24,009 nt of DNA from Octopus sinensis (GCF_006345805.1 NW_021836513.1:1-24009); one strand, 5' to 3'. Counted from the first letter of the stretch, positions 9,978 to 23,765 are shown. The notes: a model not told the origin generated them from the sequence alone. Translations and numbers: made by a program.

Positions 9978-10172
9978 GACCTCGTGTGTACTGTTGGCGT
10001 TTTTTTCCCTCTGTCTTCCCTTCTTGGATCTTTCCTCCTCCTATGTTTCCGACGAAGAGCTCGCTCGAAACGTTAAATCCTCCTCTCTTTCCCCTCCTTC
10101 CTGAGTGTCCAATAATACTATATTTGTTCCACGTCCTCGCGTTGTTGTTGTGTTTTCATGTTTGGATTAACT
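9978..10172 (+). mobile_element. short hammerhead-carrying element (Penelope-like solo pseudo-LTR) in (TA)n
   Basis: A unique ~195-bp island flanked by (TA)n. It shares GAAGAGC..GCTCGAAACGT...TTCCTGAGYG...AATAC...TTGTT with 13523-13695. Confidence 0.65.
10045..10078 (+). ncRNA. minimal type I hammerhead ribozyme motif (U4C core variant)
   Basis: GTTT-CCGACGA-A-GAG(CTCG)CTC-GAAA-CG-T-T-AAAT. Stem I is GTTT/AAAT and stem III is reduced to the palindrome ACGT. Confidence 0.6.
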
Positions 10173-10184
10173 AAATATATATAT

Positions 10185-11280
10185 ATATTTACCTAATACA
10201 CAAACGCACACATAAACATATTATTCTGATGTACACATGCACACACATTACCAGGTAGTCATGCACATACATACAATACGTGAACTCATACATACATTCA
10301 TAGACTCATACATTCCATACATATCTATTTACACATAAACTGATACACTCATATGTATGCCTACATCGGAGCTCATATAAGCGTACACACATAAAAGAAA
10401 ACACACGCGCACGCACACACACATATATATCTACACATAAGCATTATACTTAACTGCACACGGAAATGCACACATACTCACATATACATACACAAGCACA
10501 TACACACACACATTCATACACAGAGAAACTCACTCACATATACACATACTAACATATACACACACACGCACACACACATATTCACATACACACTCACCTG
10601 TATACACACAAAAACACATACACGCATACACACACATACTCACCTATATACATACACGCATACGTATTCACACACCACACGCGCACTTATACACACAAAT
10701 ACACTCACGCATACATACACACACGCACATACACACTCACCACACACATACACACTCACACACTCGCATACACACTCACACACATATTCACCTATAAGCA
10801 CATAAATAAACACACACACAGACACGCATACACACTCACACACACATATACACACTCACACACACGCATACACACTCACACACACTTACTCACACACACG
10901 CATACACTCACACACACACATACATACTCACACACACGCATACACACTCACAAACACGCATACACACTCACACACACACATACATACTCACACACACGCA
11001 TACACACACTCACACACACGCATATACACTCACACACACTCACTCACACACACGCAGACACACTCACGCACACATTCACCTATATGCACACAAATAAACA
11101 CACACACACACATATATACACACAAATGCACATGCATACACTGATGCACACACCTATATACACACAAACAGGCACACACTCACTCACACACGCAGACACA
11201 CTCACGTACACACTCACCTATATACACACAAACAGACTCACACACACTCGTACACACACACACATACACACACACACCAA
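10185..11280. repeat. ~1.1 kb degenerate (CA)n/(CACT)/(CATA) microsatellite
   Basis: Direct reading. Confidence 0.95.
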
Positions 11281-11488
11281 CCTGAAGGAATACGGTTGTG
11301 GCATCGTTTCTGTCTGTGTCCACAAGATGTTAGTCTGTAACATTTTCTAAAGATCATCCAGAAGCGATGACCTTTTTACAAACAAACCTGTTATCTCGCC
11401 ACCAAATATTTCTTCTTAACTCCTTACACACACACACACACACACACACAATCTCTGATCTTTGCCGCAGCTTTAAAGGAATTTCAAT

Positions 11489-11489
<1 letters not shown>

Positions 11490-11525
<36 letters not shown>

Positions 11526-11536
11526 CATTATTATTA

Positions 11537-11586
<50 letters not shown>

Positions 11587-11625
11587 TATTATTGTTATTA
11601 TTATTATTATTATATTATTATTATA

Positions 11626-11672
<47 letters not shown>

Positions 11673-11860
11673 TATTATTATTATTTTATTATTATATTAT
11701 GATTATATTATTATTATTAATTATTATTATTCTTATTATATTGTTATTTTATTATTATATATTATTATTATTATATTATTATTATTATTATTATATTATT
11801 ATTATTATATTATTTTATTATTATTATTATTATATTATATTATATTATTTTTATTATAGT
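11490..11860. repeat. imperfect (ATT)n array
   Basis: Direct reading. It abuts the presumed 3' end of the minus-strand element at 11884-12096. Confidence 0.95.
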
Positions 11861-11883
11861 GTAGTAGTAAGTAGTAGTAGAAT

Positions 11884-12096
11884 AGAGTGAGAGAGGAGCG
11901 CATGCAATCAAAATGACACTCAGGTAAAATATACAAAGCCCAGTATACCCACCATGACAACCCGTCTGATAAGGGTACACTAGGCACATGCATCACAACC
12001 ATATGTGCGCTGGTGATCTCATATCAAGATAAACAGTGGATGACCTTGCCGGTAGGGCCCAGTTGGAATTTTATTCAGGTCGAGTAGCCCATCCTC
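11884..12096 (-). mobile_element. probable retroposon 3' fragment (working family E) with an (AAT)n-type tail
   Basis: A GC-richer island whose minus strand ends ...GTGTCATTTTGATTGCATGCGCTCCTCTCTCACTCT and runs into ACT/AAT repeats. Single copy here, so the assignment is an inference. Confidence 0.5.
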
Positions 12097-12453
12097 GAGT
12101 GCTTAGATAAATTTCCTGGGTGTGTCCATTATTACGTAGGTGTTACCGCTTTTAAATTTATGACCATAATACATAACCACATTCATTCTTTTAAATACTA
12201 AAGAAAACTACTATTTGTTGGCCAAGTTCATGTGAGGCCTCAAAGGGACGAATAAAGACTAATCCATTTTGTCTATCCTATGTACTGCTGTTCCTTGCAG
12301 AGAGGGTGATAATAGCTGTGATTTGTGCTCAGTTGAGGCACTGGAAATTCTCAATTGCAAATCCAATTTAATAAACGTAACAAGTTATTACTTCGCTGTT
12401 CACACTTATTAAATAAAACCTTAAAATTTCAACACAAAAATCCTAGGCCTTAA
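12097..12453 (+). mobile_element. decayed Penelope-like element, GIY-YIG endonuclease C-terminal remnant
   Basis: Manual translation through stops and two frameshifts gives ECLDKFPGCVHYYVGVTAFKFMTIIHNHIHSFKY*RK / LLAKFM*GLKGTNKD*SILSILCTAVPCREGDNSCDLCSVEALEILNCKSNLIN / LLLRCSHLLNKTLKFQHKNPRP*. This fits the Penelope pattern YIGxT..F..R..NH..SF...LSKxIWxLK...WSIL..A..Y....CxLCxxE...I...LN...C.H. Confidence 0.8.
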
Positions 12454-12646
12454 ATTAATGCCTGCGTTCCCTTTGTTGGGGGGATTATCCCACCTCCTTT
12501 AATTATCTGTTTTGTAACATACCAAATACTCATTTCTTAATTAGTGTGTAATCTAATCCTTAACTAGAGCATATAATTTCATTTAATTTCATTCAGTTCC
12601 ATTTGACTGCGGTCAGCGTATTATTTCTTGAATGGATTGTAGAGTT

Positions 12647-12921
12647 CGGTTATAGAAAATTTCGCCGTAAACATTTTTGCCGTAGGAAAATTCATGTATG
12701 AAATCTAATTTTAAATGACCTTATCACATTTTTCTAATGTTTGACGTTGAATAAAGACTTGCCTGTTTAATACTTTTATAAAAACTTTAATCATTCTTCT
12801 TCATTATTAAAAACAAAATGGTGATATAATACGCTTACTGCCAATAAGTCTTCTGACAAACTTTTTTACAGCAAATTTCCCTATACGTCGAAATTTTTTG
12901 AGGCGAATTTTCCAGGCACGG
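12647..12921. mobile_element. MITE/foldback-like DNA element with inverted subterminal repeats
   Basis: The left end has tandem AAAATTTCGCCGTA-like units (12656-12693). The right end has their degenerate reverse complements (TACAGCAAATTT, ACGTCGAAATTT, AGGCGAATTTTCC; 12867-12913). The interior is AT-rich and no convincing TSD was found. Confidence 0.5.
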
Positions 12922-13263
12922 CAGAGGCGGGCATTTAACTCATAATTTTTACACGCATTTATAATTATACCTAGCTGAATTTCCTTGTTCTTTCTTCTTA
13001 AATCAACATAGTAAATATCGAGTAATAATTTCCTTTTCTATATTCTCTCTGGCTTAACGTACTTTTATACTTACTGACATCTTGACCTCCACGGACTGTA
13101 AATTTAGCAAGTTTATAATAAATCGAAGACGCCGATTTGATACGTCAGTTATGTCTATATTTATAGATGTGCAATTCTCTATATTTAGAGCTCTAGGCCA
13201 ATGCAACCCACTCCCCCCCCCCAAGGATATATGTTTGTCGGAAACTCTGAAAAAGCTACCATA

Positions 13264-13401
13264 ATAACTTTACGGTCTGACGAGAATGGTTGACGGTTAA
13301 CTTCCATTGATTAATTGATTAATTATGCATACAAACCAGTGTAAAGGGAAGAACCAGTTCCTCCAGTCATTTGAAACGATCGTATTCTTGAATAAAGTTA
13401 T
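13264..13401 (+). ncRNA. type I hammerhead ribozyme motif with intact core and 71-nt stem II insert
   Basis: CTGACGA at 13277-13283. Stem II is GAATGGTTG (13284-13292) / CAGTCATTT (13364-13372). GAAAC-GATC-GTA at 13373-13384. Distal stem I is ATAACTTTA (13264-13272) / TAAAGTTAT (13393-13401). AATAAA at 13391-13396. Confidence 0.75.
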
Positions 13402-13522
13402 GTAACAACTTTATTTATATTTATATTTATATTTATATTTATGTAGGTATATACATATGTATGTATGTATGTGTGTATGTATGTATGTATGTATGTATGT
13501 ATGTATGTATGTATATATGTAT

Positions 13523-13695
13523 CGTTAGCCACTACACACATTTTTTCTCTCCTTGTTTTTTCTGTGCATCTTACTGTAGAAGAGCGTAGGCTCGAAACGT
13601 AAAAGACTTTTTCTATTCCTGAGCGTTATACTAATACAATTGTTTGTTTTCTACACCACCTGTCTTCGTCTTTTGTTTTTTTCGTAAACTCTCCT
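13523..13695 (+). mobile_element. short hammerhead-carrying element (Penelope-like solo pseudo-LTR) between (TATG)n and (TA)n
   Basis: A ~170-bp island with the same layout as 9978-10172. Confidence 0.65.
13569..13606 (+). ncRNA. minimal type I hammerhead motif (A6U core variant)
   Basis: TCTTA-CTGTAGA-A-GAGC(GTAG)GCTC-GAAA-CG-T-A-AAAGA. Stem I is TCTT/AAGA with a proximal A-A mismatch. Confidence 0.55.
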
Positions 13696-13709
13696 TATAT
13701 ATGTATATA

Positions 13710-13774
<65 letters not shown>

Positions 13775-13825
13775 ATGTCTCTATATATATACACACCACA
13801 TTCTCTAGGTGAGATCTAGAGAAAG

Positions 13826-13986
13826 ATTTTCCTCCCTGACGAAGGAGGCCGGTATTACAGTAATGTTTATATGCATCCTGTGCCGGTTGCATATCCTTGA
13901 ATTCTGGCGCACGCCATCTACCAATTATGAACATTACAAATATTACGTAATTCCGATCGCATAGAAACAGTTGTCGGGTTTAAAAT
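13826..13986 (+). ncRNA. degenerate type I hammerhead motif with ~120-nt stem II insert
   Basis: CC-CTGACGA (core 13836-13842) ... GAAAC-AGTT-GTC (13964-13975)-GGG, with a distal ATTTT/AAAAT. The stem II closing pair is not evident. Confidence 0.45.
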
Positions 13987-14458
13987 ACCACGCTTTCTTC
14001 CCTTAGCTTTCAGTATTTTTTGTACTCCGTGTACATTTATTTATTTCGTAAATATATAAATATCTTTATGCTTATACCTGGGTTTTCATCTGAATATTTT
14101 CAATTTGTGCTTCTTCTTATATATATTCCCCTATATATATTTACATGTGTATATGTATGTATCTATATTTTATATACCAAGCCCAAGCGCGTTTATCTGT
14201 ATCTCTCTCTCTCTTTCCCTATATATGTATATTTACTCACACCCATGTATGTAATGGTAAGATCCTTAGATCTAAGTATAGGAAGTTTGTAAGCTTTGAG
14301 TAGTCTGCGGTAGGTATAAAAAACAACGTTCAGGAACAATAATTTACTAGTGGGTCTCATGAATATTTCCTGGAATCAATGGTAAACTTATGGTAAACTC
14401 TATCCAAAATACCTGGAAGCATTGCTTGTGTTGTGTCTGTATCAAAAGATGGATATAT

Positions 14459-14756
14459 GGATGGAAGCACTCCGTCGGTTACGACGATGAGGGTTGCGGT
14501 TGATCCGAATCAACGGAACAGCCTGCTCGTGAAATTAACTTATAAGTGGCTGAGCACTCCACAGACACGTGTACCCTTAACGTAGTTCTCGGGGATATTC
14601 AGCGTGACACAGAGAGTGACAAGGCCGGCCCTTTGAAATACAGGTACAACAGAAACAGGAAGTAAGAGTGAGAGAAAGCTGTGGTGAAAGAGTACAGCAG
14701 GGATCACCACCATCCCCTGCCAAAGCCTCGTGGAGCTTTAGGTGTTTTCGCTCAAT
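14459..14756 (-). mobile_element. 5'-truncated SINE (family C central domain, different 3' tail) with 13-bp TSD
   Basis: AAGATGGATATAT at 14446-14458 and 14757-14769. 14660-14756 is the reverse complement of 1059-1150. The tail ends ...CGTAACCGACGGAGTGCTTCCATCC. Confidence 0.85.
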
Positions 14757-14968
14757 AAGATGGATATATATACGCGCTTCGATGGGCATATGAATAAATA
14801 TGTATTTGTCTGCATCTATATTTATCAGTTTCTCTACTCTTAGAGTCTAACTATTCTTGGAAATACTCTCAAAACGTATTGTTAATTACTGACATATTTT
14901 TGCGACCTACCAGTTATTTTCTCAGTTTTTACTAAACCCTTATATCTCTCTCTTCCATCTCTTTGCAG

Positions 14969-15198
14969 CTCTGTTTGGCGTTTTGTTCATGGATCGACAG
15001 GAGGCTGCATTCGCGTCTTACCGCATGTTCCACGCCACTGGTTGCGCCATAGCGTTCGGTTACAGCTACTTCTTGTGTGTGGTGACCAAAGTCTACATCC
15101 TCGCTGGCGCAATGGGCGTCTCACTGCTGGCGTACGGCGTCATTGAATTACGGCTGAGGTTACAGCAGCAAGACACCAAAGACATTGTTGCTCTGTAG
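14969..15198 (+). CDS. UNC93A: terminal coding exon of an UNC-93 homolog A-like MFS membrane protein
   Basis: A polypyrimidine tract and TTTGCAG acceptor (AG at 14967-14968, phase 1) precede (A)LFGVLFMDRQEAAFASYRMFHATGCAIAFGYSYFLCVVTKVYILAGAMGVSLLAYGVIELRLRLQQQDTKDIVAL*, with TAG at 15196-15198. This matches the UNC-93 family C-terminal signature ALYGVLF....EAAFANYRLW...GF..AFGYS.FLC...K.YIL. The exact paralogue is uncertain. Confidence 0.9.
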
Positions 15199-15698
15199 AG
15201 CAGAGCAGAGCAGATCCGAGTAGGAACTGGCACAAATGGACACACAGACAGACTGACAGGCAAATAGAAAGACTGGAAGGACAGACGGACAGACAGACTG
15301 ACAAAAAGACTGATCAACTAAAAGACCAGAAATGATATGGACAGACAGATAAACTTTACTTTCACTTTCCATTGTAACCCATCGTAGTACTGCCAAATTT
15401 CCACCGCTACTACACACTCCTCCCCACCGCCAATCACCATGACCATACATACCATCTGCACCATCAACAACAGTGATAACACCACTGGCAATAACAACGG
15501 CACCAGAACCAGCGACAGTGGCACCAATACCAGGGCAGTCACCTTACCACAAATCACCTTTCGGGCCATTATCGCTCGTGTCATCCGCCATTTTATTATC
15601 AATGTATGTATATAATTGTATTCGTGCTTGTGTCTATATTTATGTGTGTGCGTGTGTGCATGTGCGTGCATGTATATATATATATACATACATATTAG

Positions 15699-15929
15699 GG
15701 CGGCGAACTGGCAGAATCGTTAGCACGTCGGGCGAAATGCTTAGCGGTATTTCATCTGCCGCTACGTTCTGAGTTCAAATTCCGCCGAGGTCGACTTTGC
15801 CTTTCATCCTTTCAGGGTCGATAAATAAAGTACCAGTTACGCACTGGGATCGATGTAATCGACTTAATCCCTTTGTCTGTCCTTGTTTGTCCCCTCTATG
15901 TTTAGCCCCTTGTGGGTAGTAAAGAAATA
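15699..15929 (+). mobile_element. full-length tRNA-derived SINE, working family B
   Basis: GGCGGCGAACTGGCAGAATCGTTAGC...GAGTTCAAATTCCGCCGAGGTCGACTTTGCCTTTCATCCTTTC...CCCCTTGTGGG..AAAGAAATA. Highly similar copies at 17924 (+) and 21309 (-). Confidence 0.9.
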
Positions 15930-16120
15930 TATATATATATATATATACATACATACATATATGAATAAGAACATAGTCAACTTTTCAATTGTGATACGTG
16001 CGGCATCCGAACGACTATTTATTTGTTTTGTGTGTGTGTGTGTATGTAGATTTTTGTATGAATACATATGTGTGTGCGTATGTATGTATCTGTATGTATA
16101 TATATGTGTATATATATATA

Positions 16121-16170
<50 letters not shown>

Positions 16171-16319
16171 CATACATATATGAATAAGGACATAGTCAAC
16201 TTTTCAATTGTGATACGTGCGGCATCCGAACGACTATTTATTTGTTTTGTGTGTGTGTGTGTATGTAGATTTTTGTATGAATACATATGTGTGTGCGTAT
16301 GTATGTATCTGTATGTATA

Positions 16320-16375
<56 letters not shown>

Positions 16376-16379
16376 ATAT

Positions 16380-16385
<6 letters not shown>
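15930..16385. repeat. 219-bp-period tandem duplication bounded by (TA)n
   Basis: The unique core TGAATAAG(A/G)ACATAGTCAACTTTTCAATTGTGATACGTGCGGCATCCGAACGAC... occurs at 15962 and 16181. One substitution was seen (A15970 / G16189). Confidence 0.9.
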
Positions 16386-16441
<56 letters not shown>

Positions 16442-16519
16442 ACATACACATATGAATTGTATTCGGTATACCAGTAATGTTTGCGTTGATGTAATATTAT
16501 TTGTTCAACTTTACGATTG

Positions 16520-16800
16520 GTATCGTCATCATCATCACCACCATCATCATCATCATCATCATCACCACCATCATCATCATCATCATCGTTGTCGTCATCG
16601 TCATCATTATAACTATAACCATGATCATTGTCATCAACATTGTCATCGTTGCTGTCGTAATCGCACCATCCTCCTCAGCATCACGATCATCCTCATCATC
16701 ATCATCTCCGTCGTCATTATCATTGTCACCACTACCACGAACAGCATCATCATCATCATCATCATCATCACCGTTATCGTCCTCATAATCCTCATCATTT
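16520..16800. repeat. degenerate (CAT)n array
   Basis: Direct reading. Confidence 0.9.
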
Positions 16801-17527
16801 ACATCTGTTTATCATCCATTGTTACATGGACGGGGGGAGAATGTTTTTTTTTTCCTTCCTCTTCTGTATCCGACCTCTTCACCACTTCTCACGTCTTCCT
16901 CAGTCTTCCTCCAACACAAGCTCCCTCTGTACAGGGTTGCATGGCAACTTCTTCACTCGAACTCCCTTCCCGTCATCCTCCGTGTGCATCACGTGATCAT
17001 ATCAGTGCAATCTCTGTTGCACATTTACAGCGGATTCTTTTTGTTTTTTGTTTTTTGTTTTTTTTTTACATCTGTTTTTTTTTCTTCTCTCCTCAAATCT
17101 GCGCTGTCGTTTAATGCACGCCAGTATTTACGCAACCCCGCGGAGCATGCTTAGCTCAACTCTAATTCAAGCCTTCGCCCCGCACATCCTCTGCACAATT
17201 AATGCCAAATGCGTCCGACTGTGAAACCGTAACATGCATGGAAACATAGAAAACACCAAAAAAGAAAAGAACAAAAGAAAAAGAAAAAGAAGAAACGAAA
17301 AACAAAAATCAAGTGTAAGAAAAACTGCAAAATAGAAACGAAGAAAACCCAACAATCACTCTTATAGTAAATGGCGTTGTGTATTTATATATTTCATGTC
17401 ACACCAAAGGAAATAACCTCAGTATGTTATTGATACATCGATTATCTCCCTTCGTTATGTGACACTCAGTAGAACCACACATATATATATATATACACAT
17501 ACATACATACATAATACATACATACAT

Positions 17528-17573
<46 letters not shown>

Positions 17574-17802
17574 TGTATAATATATATGTATATATATATA
17601 TAATGTATATATATATATCTATATATATATATAGAGAGGAGAGAGAGAGAGAGAGAGTGACAGACAGAGGTGTACTTGCATAGCAAGTGACCTGATTTGA
17701 GATCGTGTGCTGGAACGAAACCAATTGCAGCGTGGAAGGTGTTTATAAGCCGTTTAAGAAACACACAAAAACCGTTAGATTCACTTCAACATTTAAATTT
17801 AA

Positions 17803-17853
17803 TTTGCCAAACTATTTTCGTCCCCTTCAGACCGTGACCTGTTCACTGACAAA
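17803..17853 (-). ncRNA. type I hammerhead motif with G3:C8 core swap
   Basis: The minus strand reads TTTGTCA-GTGAACA-G-GTCAC(GGTCTGAAG)GGGAC-GAAA-ATAG-T-T-TGGCAAA. Stem I TTTGTCA/TGGCAAA has 7 bp including one G-U. Confidence 0.6.
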
Positions 17854-17872
17854 CTTATGTGCAGCACGGGGT

Positions 17873-17923
17873 TTTGTCAGTGAAGAGGTCGCGGTCTCAA
17901 AACGACGGAAATATTTTGGCAAA
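17873..17923 (+). ncRNA. mutated copy of the same hammerhead motif
   Basis: TTTGTCA-GTGAAGA-G-GTCGC(GGTCTCAAA)ACGAC-GGAA-ATAT-T-T-TGGCAAA. The core has two apparent lesions (unpaired G3/G8; GGAA for GAAA). Confidence 0.5.
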
Positions 17924-18110
17924 AGGCGACGAGCTGGCAGAAGCGTTAGCACGTCGGGCGAAATGCTTAGCAGAATTTCGTCTGCCGTTACGTTCTGAGT
18001 TCAAATTCCGCCGAGGTCAGCTTTGCCCTTCATCCTTTCGGGGTCGATATAATCGAATTAATCCGTTTGTCCCCTCTATGTTTAGCCCCTTGTGGGCAAT
18101 GCAGAAATAA
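17924..18110 (+). mobile_element. SINE family B with 17-bp TSD
   Basis: GGAAATATTTTGGCAAA at 17907-17923 and 18111-18127. The body matches 15699-15929 with internal deletions. Confidence 0.9.
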
Positions 18111-18236
18111 GGAAATATTTTGGCAAATTAAATTTAAATGTTGAAGTGAATCTAACGGTTTTTGTGTGTTTTTAAATGGCCTATAAACACCTTCTACGCT
18201 GTAATTGTATATATATATATATATAAATATAAAAGG

Positions 18237-18322
18237 AAACGAAGAAAATGCTGACAAAATAATTTAAGTAATTTTCACCTAATTAAATTACTTAAATTAT
18301 TTTGTCAGCATTTTCTTCGTTT
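18237..18322. repeat. perfect 38-bp inverted repeat with a 10-nt loop
   Basis: AAACGAAGAAAATGCTGACAAAATAATTTAAGTAATTT (18237-18274) is the exact reverse complement of 18285-18322. Confidence 0.95.
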
Positions 18323-18357
18323 ACTTTTTTATATATCACAACTCGTGTTCCACATCT

Positions 18358-18403
<46 letters not shown>

Positions 18404-18962
18404 GTATGTATAATGTGTGTGTGTGTATGTATAAAATAATTTAAACCTGCATGTAGAAATTAAATGCAAATGAGGGAATCTTTTAAACAAAACGGAATTG
18501 TCCTTTGAGTTTGTAGTAAGTGAAGAATTACCGAATAATTAGCTGCGAAACCTCTTCTTGCTCAGCATTGTCGTGTAACCATTTTCCTTGTTCTCCTTAG
18601 CGAAATTTCCAGTTTTGTGCACTTGTAAAAAAAACAAAAAAACACAAAAAACAAATATCGAACTATAAAAGGAATTTTGTTTGTGTTTTTTTTTCTGTTT
18701 ATTTTTTTGTTTTGGTTTTTTTTTTACGACTCTTCAATGCAAAGTCTGTTACTGTAAATAACTTGTATTTAAAAAAAAAAGGAAAAAAACCCCAAATAAA
18801 CGTAGTTTTCTATATTTTAACTTTCTTTTATTATCATTGTGTGTGTGTGTGTGTGTGTGTATGTGTGTGGTCAGACAAATAGTGAGAGCGAGAGAGAGAG
18901 AAAGAGAGAGAGAGAGAGAAGATATGAAGCAGGATTGCATAGTGAGATTTTAAGCATTCAAT

Positions 18963-19186
18963 ATTGATGATGATGATGATGATGATTATAACAATGATGA
19001 CGACGCCGATAATTATGATGATGAAGATGGGTATGATTTTGATGATAATGATGACAATGGTGGTAATGGTTGTTGATAGGGATGCTGCTGCTGATGATGA
19101 TGATGACGACGACGATGATGATGGTGATGATGAGTATGTGGATAACGATGATGATGCGTATGATGATGGTGATGATGATGATGATG

Positions 19187-19243
<57 letters not shown>

Positions 19244-19395
19244 CGACGACCTCAACGATGATGGTGACGATAGTGATGATGATGATGATGATAATGAAAA
19301 CGATGATGACTACGGTGATGGCGATGATGCTGCTGATGATGTTTGTGACGATTGAAGATGGTGATGATGATAATCTGTATATTTGCGATAAATGA
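18963..19395. repeat. degenerate (GAT)n array
   Basis: Direct reading. Confidence 0.95.
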
Positions 19396-19833
19396 TAGCG
19401 GTTATTGCTATTTCTGGTAACAGTGGTGGTGTTGAAGGTGGTAGTCATGGACATGGAGTGGTGGTGGTATATATTTGTTGGTCGGTGGTCAACTGAACCG
19501 ATGCGATGTCTTTACCAAGAACGGCTTGTCCAAAGAATTCTCCGAAGTAGCAAAGAATATGCCATTGTGACTGTGATTACGAATTGTTTGATTCTTGCCG
19601 TTGGTTAATACCTTTTTTGTTAAATATCATTCCATTCGTCCCTTCATTATACACCCGGTTGTGTTTTACCTCACATTTACACTCTACACACAATGAATAT
19701 GCATATATATATATATATATATAGATATATATATATATATATTATATATATATATTATATATATATATATAATATTATATATATATATAGATATATAATA
19801 TATATATATAGATATATATATATATATATATAT

Positions 19834-20062
19834 TACATTAGAGATAAAACCACCAAATCAAACAATGAAAAACATAAGCCAATACATAAAATTAATTAAT
19901 TTATATTATTTTAAATATATATCAAAAGTATTAAAAGTTTAATAAAAGATATTGAGTAAAACACTACGATCGTTTCATGGCTGTCCAATTCGTAATAATT
20001 CTAGTTATGGTTACAGTCAATCTTCAGGTAATTGAAATATTTATCTTAGCGAGGTTTAACAA
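19834..20062 (-). mobile_element. short hammerhead-carrying element (Penelope-like solo pseudo-LTR) flanked by (TA)n
   Basis: A ~230-bp AT-rich island between two (TA)n tracts, containing the motif at 19946-20047. Confidence 0.6.
19946..20047 (-). ncRNA. type I hammerhead ribozyme motif with intact core
   Basis: The minus strand reads TAC-CTGAAGA (20027-20021)-T-TGACTGT...ACAGCCA-T-GAAAC-GATC-GTA (19976-19965)-GTG. Distal stem I is AAGATA/TATCTT. The stem II proximal pair is T-T. Confidence 0.7.
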
Positions 20063-21246: not shown

Positions 21247-21308
21247 TAACAACAACAACAACAACAATACTACTACTACTACTACTAATAATAATAATAA
21301 TAATAATA

Positions 21309-21539
21309 TATTTCTTTATTACCCACAAGGGGCTAAATATAGAGGGGACAAACAAGGACAGACAAAGGGATTAAGTCGATCATATCGACCCCAGTGCGAA
21401 ACTGGTACTTTATTTATCGACCCCGAAAGGATGAAAGGCAAAATCGACCTCGGCGGAATTTGAACTCAGAACGTAACGGCAGATGAAATACTGCTAAGTA
21501 TTTCGCCCGGCGCGCTAACGTTTCTGCCAGCTCGCCGCC
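21309..21539 (-). mobile_element. full-length SINE family B
   Basis: Reverse complement of 15699-15929 with few differences. Confidence 0.9.
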
Positions 21540-21540
21540 T

Positions 21541-22050
21541 AAGCTAATAAACCGGTTATTATTCTAAAAGATCAGACAAAAAGGACGTGTTTATTAATAT
21601 ATTATATAACGGTGTTTATTAATTGACATGAGTATTCCTTGCGATCACAATATAGCGGCGAAAGAATTTGACAAGATCAGTAAATATAACGACTTGCTAA
21701 TAGAAATTGAAAAAATGTGGCGACTACAGTACCAGTGATTGTAGGATCTCTAGGAATGGTAAAAAAAAAGGTACTGAAACCTATTTGAAAATGATACCAG
21801 GCTTACCATCCCAACAGGAAGTGCAAAAAATCGTGTTAACTGGAACGGCTCATGTACTGAGAAGAGCATTATCGCTGTGAAAACACCATCCATTTATGAA
21901 TATATTAATTTATTTAAATACATATTTTACCTGTGAATTTGCGTGTGTAATCTGGAAATGCATACAATGAGTTTCTCTGTCCTAGGTGTACGGAAAAACA
22001 CTCGGCAAGAAACGGAAGAAAATTTGAAGAAAGAAGGAATAATAATAATA

Positions 22051-22873: not shown

Positions 22874-22899
22874 CTGTATGTACACAAACATATATCCCT

Positions 22900-23765
22900 G
22901 AGACAACTCATCAGTGGCTGAGAAACTCAAGACTGAAAGCAAAGACTACAGGTTTCATATTAGTGGTACAAGACCAAAGCTTGCTTACCAAAAACTACCA
23001 GGCTAGTGTTCTTCAAAACGGTTCTGACCCTAAATGTAGATTCTGCGATGCATTTGGTGAAACGATAGACTACCTCGTCTCGGAACGTCCTGTGCTGACA
23101 TCAAACGAATGCAACAATCGCCACAATCAGGTAGGAGAGTATTTACATTGAAAACCAGGTAAACGCTACAAAATCAACACTCCTGCTTACTAGTATGAAC
23201 ATCATCCTGAGCCAGTCGTTGAAGGTAATAATGTCACTATCGTCTGGGATTTTCCAGTCAACATCGACAGGCTAATCGACCAGACATAGTCATTAAAGAC
23301 ATGGAAGAAAATACTTGTAGATAAATTGATATAAGTGTTCCCACTGATAAAAATATATCTGTAAAGGAATTTGAAAAATTAAATAAATATAACGACCTGG
23401 AAATTGAAATACAAAAGACGTGGCATCTTAAAGCGAGAACTGTTCCTGTTACTGTGGTTGCGCTAGGTATGATGAGAAAGAGATGTCAAAAACATCTAGA
23501 TGATATCCCAGGATAACCATGTCTCAGAGAAATCCAAGAGATTGTGTTAACAAGTATTGCACATACCCTTAGAAAAAACCTTATCAATTTAAATGTCTGT
23601 GTTGTATTAGATGCAGATATTTCGCTACTGCCCCTGCCATTTCCCCGCCCCAAGCTTCTATTTCAGTCATACTGTAACATCTCTTAACCTTCACTCGCCC
23701 TAGGACGTTGGGTGTGTTTCGGCAAGTGATTGTAACAATCATGCAAATTAGAAATAAATAAATAA

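What the first reader, a model, noticed from the sequence alone, without database searches (positions are those of the whole stretch)
9978..20062. Seven hammerhead-ribozyme motifs in ~10 kb, carried by short (TA)n-embedded non-coding units
Seen: type I hammerhead layouts (stem I, CUGANGA or a variant, stem II, GAAA, palindromic stem III, UH, stem I') at 10045(+), 13264(+), 13569(+), 13826(+), 17803(-), 17873(+) and 19946(-). Most lie in 170-250 bp islands flanked by TA-type microsatellites and they fall into several dissimilar sequence types. Established: Penelope-like element pseudo-LTRs and metazoan retrozymes carry minimal type I hammerheads with palindromic stem III that are thought to act as dimers. 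Inference: this is a diverse population of non-autonomous, (TA)n-associated ribozyme elements mobilised by Penelope-like enzymes, supported by the GIY-YIG remnant at 12097-12453. The general class is known; these particular families and their density may not be catalogued.
Basis: partly seen in the sequence, partly recalled or inferred. Interest (0 to 1): 0.8.

Follow-up and report, generated by a model that had tools for sequence, protein, structure and literature searches.

The report
Penelope retrotransposon ends carrying hammerhead ribozymes
The seven motifs are hammerhead-ribozyme shapes in six short, mostly decayed pieces of Penelope-like jumping genes that occur in hundreds to tens of thousands of copies in this animal genome; this is a known arrangement, but one family carries a swapped active-site base pair that is predicted to cut only weakly.

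Summary
The seven type I hammerhead layouts are real. They belong to six insertions from six dispersed families, because the motifs at 17803(-) and 17873(+) are the two arms of one head-to-head element. Most are not stand-alone ribozyme elements. Four families (F1, F2, F3, F7) are pseudo-LTR ends of protein-coding Penelope-like elements (PLEs): other copies sit downstream of RT and/or GIY-YIG sequence on the same strand, and intact pLTR-ORF-pLTR Neptune-type elements carry F3-like ends. The window's F7 copy has lost an ~898-nt GT-AG intron that ends 13 nt before the core. F5/6 behaves as a true short non-coding PLE, with a hard 5' end, optional tail and frequent 5' inversion; no ORF was found. 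Its core has the C3-G8 pair swapped to G3-C8 (97 of 100 listed; 2,296 exact matches). F1 has U4C and F3 has A6U. F4 is unlinked. A genome-wide pattern gives 27,250 F1/F3-type motifs; local enrichment is not shown. No retrozyme-type tandem arrays were seen. Cleavage is untested. Verdict: new members of a known class, with one possibly unreported core variant.

The parts
9978..10175 (+). F1: 5'-truncated 3' pLTR of a Neptune-type PLE. Minimal hammerhead: core CCGACGA (U4C), extra A before a 4-bp stem II, stem III ACGT, H17=U, predicted cut after 10074
   Evidence: 3,101 first-look candidates, 40 scored; C4 in 27 of 29 other copies; one copy lies downstream of RT and GIY-YIG frames on the same strand (L003/L186)
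12123..12440 (+). Decayed C-terminal GIY-YIG remnant of a Penelope/Poseidon-type PLE; body of the F2 element
   Evidence: + strand frames; homologous loci hit a PLE endonuclease at E 2e-6 to 2.5e-5, and one holds RT upstream; collinear with F2
13005..13152 (+). 3' UTR piece of the F2 element, shared with other copies between the endonuclease and the pLTR
13228..13410 (+). F2: 3' pLTR of the old element above. Canonical core CTGACGA, long stem II, stem III ACGATCGT; stem I broken in this copy
   Evidence: 56 candidates at 69-93% identity, most in the 70s; column counts support stems I-III in relatives; HHR downstream of the endonuclease on the same strand in 7 of 19 endonuclease loci
13522..13697 (+). 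F3: 5'-truncated 3' pLTR of a Neptune-type PLE. Core CTGTAGA (A6U), stem III ACGT, predicted cut after 13601; first stem I pair broken in this copy
   Evidence: 801 candidates; U6 in 24 of 24 other copies; F3-like unit downstream in 29 of 30 Neptune-type endonuclease loci; on both sides of intact 835-aa and 949-aa frames
13826..14045 (+). F4: old family. Canonical core CTGACGA, ~120-nt stem II region, stem III ACAGCTGT in relatives; no ORF link found
   Evidence: 298 candidates at 73-82% identity; alignment and column counts; no ORF
17663..17860 (-). F5: left arm of a head-to-head F5/6 element, with the optional ~60-nt tail. Core GTGAACA (G3-C8 swap), 7-bp stem I in the family, stem III AATATT in the family
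17864..17922 (+). F6: right arm of the same element. Core GTGAAGA (G3-G8 mismatch) and GGAA, so decayed
17923..18110 (+). SINE-like insertion in the right arm, 16-bp target duplication at 17907-17922 and 18111-18126
   Evidence: the SINE label is recalled, not tested
18111..18209 (+). Remainder of the F6 arm, ending at the short (tail-less) 3' end before (TA)n
19835..20062 (-). F7: intron-less (spliced-form) pLTR copy of a Penelope/Poseidon-type PLE. Exon junction at 20041/20040, core CTGAAGA, U-U at the base of stem II, stem III ACGATCGT, predicted cut after 19965
   Evidence: 225 exact pattern matches; 18 spliced, 8 unspliced and 4 other of 30 loci; full 879-899-nt GT-AG intron in 9 of 30 intron-bearing loci; GIY-YIG C-terminus upstream in one locus, L337, E 0.002

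Best explanation
The islands are pseudo-LTR (pLTR) pieces of Penelope-like retrotransposons that carry hammerhead motifs, most likely pasted into AT-rich and (TA)n DNA by the PLE reverse transcriptase-endonuclease from RNA that the ribozyme had not cut. Shown: family membership, linkage of F1, F2, F3 and F7 to PLE coding sequence, the F7 intron, the hard 5' end of F5/6, optional 3' tails, 5' inversions and core variants. Inferred: the GIY-YIG domain nicks the target, and RT starts inside the RNA at one of two sites, giving the tail or no tail. It then either stops early (F1, F2, F3, probably F4) or runs off the 5' end of a short or spliced pLTR transcript (F7, F5/6), often leaving an inverted second copy. 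The hammerheads are predicted to be unable to fold stem III as monomers and to cut weakly, if at all, as dimers or with protein help. That would let variant cores (U4C, A6U, G3-C8) spread.
For: All six islands are dispersed repeats. Stems co-vary between families while the layout stays fixed: five different stem I pairings, and palindromic stem III ACGT, ACGATCGT, ACAGCTGT and AATATT. These palindromes do not fold alone but pair as dimers at -1.7, -10.0, -11.1 and -0.2 kcal/mol. An F3-like unit lies downstream in 29 of 30 Neptune-type endonuclease loci. Two full pLTR-ORF-pLTR elements exist with RVT_1 above cut-off, GIY-YIG at E 0.006 and a C-X4-CxxC linker. F1 follows RT and endonuclease in L186. 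F2 follows the endonuclease in 7 of 19 loci. F7 has an intron ending 13 nt before the core, as in D. virilis Penelope, where the intron end maps to helix I (PMC4209133). Tails and inversions are PLE hallmarks (PMC8557442). In an anole PLE, uncut RNA is the main substrate, the tail marks two RT starts, the ribozyme needs protein, and C3G/G8C partly rescues cleavage (PMC11167929). The aligned copies keep the sequence 5' of the cut site, as expected from uncut RNA. A sister family with canonical C3-G8 (622 matches) shares stems I/II and the tail with F5/6; the tail alignment beat all 300 shuffles in 5 of 6 loci.
Against: No cleavage, transcription or circle was measured. No coding partner was found for F5/6 (loci) or F4. 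The F7 and F1 coding links each rest on one locus. The full-length elements carry ends only ~77% identical to the window's F3; closer ends (88-94%) follow the endonuclease in 4 loci. The window's GIY-YIG remnant is not significant alone. F2 and F4 are not (TA)n-flanked above background to any clear degree. Two F2 loci (L065, L081) had the upstream match in the wrong order or strand. The sister family's own ORF link is uncertain.
Confidence: 0.85

Rival explanations
1. All islands are non-autonomous retrozyme-like elements that are cut out of tandem transcripts, circularised and reinserted by PLE enzymes.
For: Short size, hammerheads, high copy number; F5/6 and most F7 copies have a fixed 5' end and no ORF. 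Vertebrate non-LTR retrozymes are proposed to derive from PLE pLTRs (bioRxiv 10.64898/2026.07.22.740005).
Against: Four families link to PLE ORFs. No arrays: only occasional second copies within 1.5 kb (F1 4 of 30 loci), and F7 and F5/6 pairs are head-to-head. Fixed 5' ends lie upstream of the core, not at the cut site, which does not fit a cleaved circular monomer.
Confidence: 0.06
2. The hammerhead folds in the variant-core families (F1 U4C, F3 A6U, F5/6 G3-C8) no longer cut at all. They persist as a structure for binding the PLE protein or for dimerising the RNA, or as neutral relics. This concerns function only and is compatible with the PLE origin.
For: In the first 100 listed F1/F3-type matches, 51 have U6, 30 have C4 and 19 are canonical. 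A6C and U4C lower activity in vitro (PMC3088659). HHR mutants do not affect PLE insertion in vitro. The F5/6 stem III dimer is very weak.
Against: The G3-C8 double change keeps the 3-8 pair (97 of 100; singly changed forms 3 of 100), which suggests selection on active-site geometry. N7 varies while U6, G8, A9 and GAAA stay.
Confidence: 0.3
3. F5/6 is a foldback or MITE-type DNA element, and its hammerhead look is chance.
For: The window copy and the 24 other best hits are long palindromes.
Against: That set was biased by the query. In 30 position-ordered loci only 16 have an inverted self-copy, with variable junctions. The two ends are unequal (tail on one side). Stems I-III and GAAA flank the core, and a sister family has the canonical core.
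Confidence: 0.04

Closest known systems
Minimal type I hammerheads in PLE pLTRs (Cervera & de la Pena 2014, PMC4209133; parts 1-2 of 4 of the text read)
   Same: Short stem I, extra nucleotide between A9 and 10.1, palindromic stem III, thousands of solo motifs from truncated PLEs, opposite-strand pairs, intron end beside helix I.
   Different: That paper reports U3-A8 as the natural 3-8 covariation. Here one family has G3-C8 and two have U4C or A6U at family level. F2, F4 and F7 have long stem II inserts.
Neptune-clade PLEs (Craig et al. 2021, PMC8557442; passages)
   Same: RT, CX2-5CxxC linker, C-terminal GIY-YIG, pLTRs, microsatellite bias: matches the parents of F3 and F1.
   Different: No tree was built; Nematis also has the linker. 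Clade assignment rests on motifs and partly on recall.
Penelope/Poseidon PLEs: D. virilis Penelope and anole PAc (Frangieh et al. 2024, PMC11167929; passages and second half of main text)
   Same: Optional 3' tail, AT-rich targets, 5' UTR intron, uncut RNA as template: fits F2, F7 and F5/6.
   Different: The F7 intron is ~898 nt against 75 nt in Penelope. The C3G/G8C form was engineered in PAc but is natural here.
Metazoan non-LTR retrozymes (Cervera & de la Pena 2020, PMC7229834, passages; Li et al. bioRxiv 10.64898/2026.07.22.740005, part 1 of 5)
   Same: Short non-coding units with type I hammerheads, related to PLE pLTRs.
   Different: Retrozymes are head-to-tail arrays with mostly canonical hammerheads and circular RNAs. 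These units are solo or head-to-head and carry minimal motifs.

Membership tests
PLE pLTR hammerhead | Type I core layout with palindromic minimal stem III | tested here: met
PLE pLTR hammerhead | Lies in the repeat downstream of, or flanking, an RT + GIY-YIG ORF | tested here: met
   F3; F1; F2; F7 endonuclease end only, one locus
PLE pLTR hammerhead | ORF linkage for F4 and F5/6 | tested here: inconclusive
   None found in the loci; samples are small against the family sizes
PLE pLTR hammerhead | Optional 3' tail and inverted 5' copy | tested here: met
   F5/6 tail in 12 of 30 and inversion in 16 of 30 loci, some of them duplicates; F7
PLE pLTR hammerhead | Spliceosomal intron in the pLTR / 5' UTR | tested here: met
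   F7 only:
PLE pLTR hammerhead | Self-cleavage as dimer or with protein | not testable with these tools
   Needs an in vitro assay
Neptune clade (F1, F3 parents) | CX2-5CxxC linker between RT and C-terminal GIY-YIG | tested here: met
   Seen in L482 and L483 for F3-like elements; not checked in the F1 parent
Neptune clade (F1, F3 parents) | RT phylogeny with named Neptune elements | not tested
   No named reference sequences held
Non-LTR retrozyme | Head-to-tail tandem arrays with an HHR in each unit | tested here: not met
   None in the window; solo copies, occasional pairs or head-to-head pairs in the loci held
Non-LTR retrozyme | Circular RNA monomers | not testable with these tools
   Only contigs of guessed RNA runs were offered
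MITE / foldback DNA transposon (F5/6) | Fixed terminal inverted repeats on every copy | tested here: not met
   14 of 30 loci have no inverted arm; junctions vary; ends are unequal

The most novel reading that the evidence does not exclude
F5/6 is a SINE-like, ~210-nt non-autonomous Penelope derivative whose hammerhead carries the first natural G3-C8 active-site pair. It is fixed across more than 2,000 copies and still cleaves as a dimer or with PLE protein. Together with the U4C and A6U families (tens of thousands of copies) and the spliced versus unspliced F7 forms, this genome would show PLEs tuning their ribozymes down so that uncut RNA can be copied.
Probability: 0.3. Interest if true: 0.62.

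Novelty: new member of a known kind. Interest (0 to 1): 0.38.

Why it matters
Why PLEs keep hammerheads is open, since cleavage is weak and not needed for insertion in vitro. This genome holds recently active PLEs with intact ORFs and natural core variants at family scale (U4C, A6U, G3-C8), plus spliced and unspliced forms of one pLTR. These give ready-made constructs for testing that question. A rough scale-up (about 11 motifs above shuffle per 400 kb) suggests some 75,000 near-intact motifs. A recent octopus repeat annotation lists Penelope families but contains neither 'ribozyme' nor 'hammerhead' in its main text (PMC13282606). The window itself is ordinary repeat debris.

Tried and rejected
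Rfam found no hammerhead model hit. I first read the GIY-YIG remnant on the minus strand; homologue searches showed it is on the plus strand. The ORF 1 kb downstream of the F7 copy in L036/L188 looked like the F7 parent, but that ORF family has a different 3' end and no F7 match in its 30 loci, so it was rejected as a neighbour. The pattern with canonical C3-G8 in F5/6 context retrieved a sister family rather than F5/6; its ORF link is seen at one duplicated locus and is not shared with the main group, so it is left open. Searches for an F4 ORF and an F5/6 upstream extension found nothing. Pfam missed isolated PLE fragments and the 717-aa ORF. Expression: no RNA holder listed. Contigs of four guessed-RNA runs show the 898-nt GT-AG joint in one run, but spliced copies exist as DNA, so this is no evidence of RNA splicing. 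Single-strand MFE folds give stems I and II in part of the F5/6 copies and do not form stem III; they were not used as support. Earlier findings of this scan: nothing returned. Literature on natural G3-C8: two searches showed only the engineered double mutant in the passages read; the G17 paper PMC3884650, listed with one hit for the term, was seen as a listing only. Lunse et al. 2016, the main survey of PLE hammerhead variants, is not held (only its reference line and a citing passage were seen). No supplements were read; those of PMC4209133 and Lunse et al. may already list these cores.
Full report
Setting. The window is a whole 24-kb contig of G000, a 2.72-Gb animal assembly. It is rich in microsatellites. 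The repeats resemble those of octopus (recalled, not tested). I label the sites F1 (10045+), F2 (13264+), F3 (13569+), F4 (13826+), F5 and F6 (17803-, 17873+) and F7 (19946-).

Observation. All seven motifs are present; exact positions are. Rfam finds none. A strict descriptor recovers F2's perfect core and F1 with one mismatch, against 0 and 0-1 hits in ten shuffles. The others are damaged in this copy or fall outside the descriptor, and are established from their families. Each island is a dispersed repeat: first-look candidates number 3,101, 56, 801, 298, 1,834 and 1,524 for F1, F2, F3, F4, F5/6 and F7, with 40 scored each. Exact patterns give 27,250 F1/F3-type motifs, 2,296 F5/6 and 225 F7, with 0 for the reversed-pattern controls. 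Across families the stems change and the layout does not. Stem III is a palindrome in each family that cannot fold alone but can pair between two copies. This is the minimal PLE hammerhead of PMC4209133 (parts 1-2 of 4 read), including the extra nucleotide after A9 in F1, F3, F4 and F5/6.

F1 and F3. Both have variable 5' ends, and some copies extend into a shared upstream sequence. That sequence leads to a GIY-YIG frame in one of two F1 copies examined and one of four F3 copies examined, and then to RT. Searching with that endonuclease gave 14,696 candidates; 29 of the 30 loci fetched have an F3-like unit downstream on the same strand at 74-94% identity. Two loci are complete pLTR-ORF-pLTR elements with 835-aa and 949-aa open frames. 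Pfam gives RVT_1 above cut-off and GIY-YIG at E 0.006 for the first, and the linker holds C-X4-CxxC, the Neptune/Nematis mark in PMC8557442 (passages). Their ends are ~77% identical to the window's F3. So F1 and F3 are truncated 3' ends of coding elements. Their cores are variant at family level: C4 in 27 of 29 F1 copies and U6 in 24 of 24 F3 copies. Among the first 100 listed genome-wide matches, 51 have U6, 30 have C4 and 19 are canonical. Part of the canonical group could come from CpG decay of C4 (inference).

F2 and the GIY-YIG remnant. The remnant is on the + strand. Alone it is not significant (E 1.3), but homologous copies hit a PLE endonuclease at E 2e-6 to 2.5e-5 and one holds RT upstream. 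Endonuclease, UTR pieces and hammerhead are collinear in independent loci. The hammerhead follows on the same strand in 7 of 19 endonuclease loci, and 10 of 29 F2 loci hold the endonuclease or UTR upstream; two more matched in the wrong order. Window 12123-13410 is therefore one old, broken PLE 3' end.

F7. The best hits share one 5' end, often preceded by an inverted self-copy, and some carry an ~85-nt 3' tail. A position-ordered sample of 30 loci (three pairs are two arms of one site) splits into 18 with a short leader joined to the core region, 8 with a different AT-rich upstream ending in AG, and 4 truncated. Longer copies show the leader followed by GT, an 898-nt stretch and AG, ending 13 nt before the core. 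Nine of 30 intron-bearing loci hold the whole 879-899-nt intron. One long copy has a GIY-YIG C-terminus 1.4 kb upstream (E 0.002). The window copy is the joined form, so it is most likely a cDNA of a spliced pLTR transcript. This matches the Penelope intron beside helix I and in the 5' UTR.

F5/6. The two motifs are arms of one head-to-head element; a SINE-like insert with a 16-bp duplication splits the right arm. The left arm ends in a ~60-nt tail and the right arm does not. In 30 position-ordered loci, 16 have an inverted self-copy with variable junctions and 12 have the tail; seven of these loci are duplicates of two sites. In 30 loci chosen for a complete 5' end, none continues into shared sequence other than its own inversion, and no ORF is linked. 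The unit is ~210 nt with a hard 5' end 24 nt before the core. The core reads GUGAACA: 97 of the first 100 matches are G3-C8, 2 are G3-G8, 1 is C3-C8 and none is C3-G8. A sister family has the canonical core (622 matches). It also shows the 3' half of stem II and GAAA, which the pattern did not ask for, and a homologous tail in 5 of 6 loci tested. C3G/G8C partly restores cleavage in engineered ribozymes (PMC11167929; PMC8495972, passages). The natural 3-8 variant in the papers read is U3-A8 (PMC3088659 section 8; PMC4209133). I found no natural G3-C8 in two searches, but could not read Lunse et al. 2016 or any supplement.

F4. This is an old family with a canonical core, a ~120-nt stem II region and a short shared upstream sequence. 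No ORF was found in 3 extended and 9 further loci. It is probably another PLE end (inference).

Targets and density. (TA)5 lies within 40 nt of the 3' end in 26/29 F1, 15/24 F3 and 18/29 F7 copies, but 4/29 F2 and 1/24 F4, against 6.9% background. Forty fixed-grid 10-kb stretches hold 14 hits to the six families, at most 2 per stretch. That comparison favours the window because the probes came from it. A family-independent descriptor gives 13 in 400 kb (shuffled 1, 2, 3) and 1 in the finding region. Exceptional density is therefore not shown.

Mechanism. Shown: the points above. Inferred from PMC11167929 and PMC8557442: the PLE protein nicks AT-rich DNA and starts reverse transcription inside its RNA at one of two sites, which yields tailed or tail-less ends. 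It then truncates, or reaches the 5' end of a short or spliced leader, and often leaves an inverted copy. The aligned copies keep the sequence 5' of the cut site, so their templates were uncut. This agrees with the in vitro result that uncut RNA is the main substrate and would explain why weakened cores spread. Whether these cores cleave as dimers or with protein is untested.

Comparison and verdict. The elements work like, and by the tests met belong to, the pLTR hammerheads of endonuclease-bearing PLEs. They fail the tandem-array test for non-LTR retrozymes (PMC7229834, passages; bioRxiv 10.64898/2026.07.22.740005, part 1 of 5). The families are likely uncatalogued as ribozymes: one search found 5 papers holding all its terms (4 listed) and one search found 2 (1 listed), none titled as a survey of hammerheads in this group, and PMC13282606 does not mention ribozymes. 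They are new members of a known class. The G3-C8 family and the spliced versus unspliced F7 pair are the parts worth follow-up.

Noticed in passing
window 14969-15198 (+): Probable last coding exon of an UNC-93-like membrane protein (Pfam PF05978 E 0.022, below cut-off). F1-F4 lie upstream on the same strand and may be intronic.
   Followed up: partly
window 15699-15932 (+), 17923-18110 (+), 21306-21539 (-): Three copies of one SINE-like repeat, 91-94% alike; the SINE label is recalled.
   Followed up: no
window 15927-16398: 219-bp tandem duplication, 2.2 copies, 98% matches.
   Followed up: no
window 11890-12095, 14462-14755, 21560-21880, 22890-23600: Pieces that look like LINE or SINE 3' ends and RTE-type coding remnants (recalled resemblance). 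The first one cuts off the F2 element's 5' side.
   Followed up: no
window 12630-13005: Stretch inside the F2 element that its relatives do not share; probably a separate insertion.
   Followed up: no
L252-L276, L373-L402: Sister family of F5/6 with a canonical core, 622 exact matches, at least 0.9 kb of shared upstream sequence in some copies; ORF link unclear.
   Followed up: partly
L192-L221; L484:2296-4446: A very abundant young Penelope/Poseidon-type family (18,518 candidates, 717-aa open frame) whose 3' end holds another hammerhead with a U4C core and an ~80-nt optional tail.
   Followed up: partly
L417, L431 and others of L412-L451: Fixed-grid stretches hold at least six further hammerhead types, including candidates with a U3-A8 core.
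   Followed up: no
L290, L296 (F5/6 copies): The fixed 5' end of F5/6 is complementary to the last bases of the tail; a 5'-3' closing stem appeared in one of five folds. It could be a protein-recognition or template-switch site.
   Followed up: partly
L337:6950-7030: The 5' end of spliced F7 copies falls on an initiator-like TCATT motif (consensus recalled), which suggests a Pol II start site.
   Followed up: no
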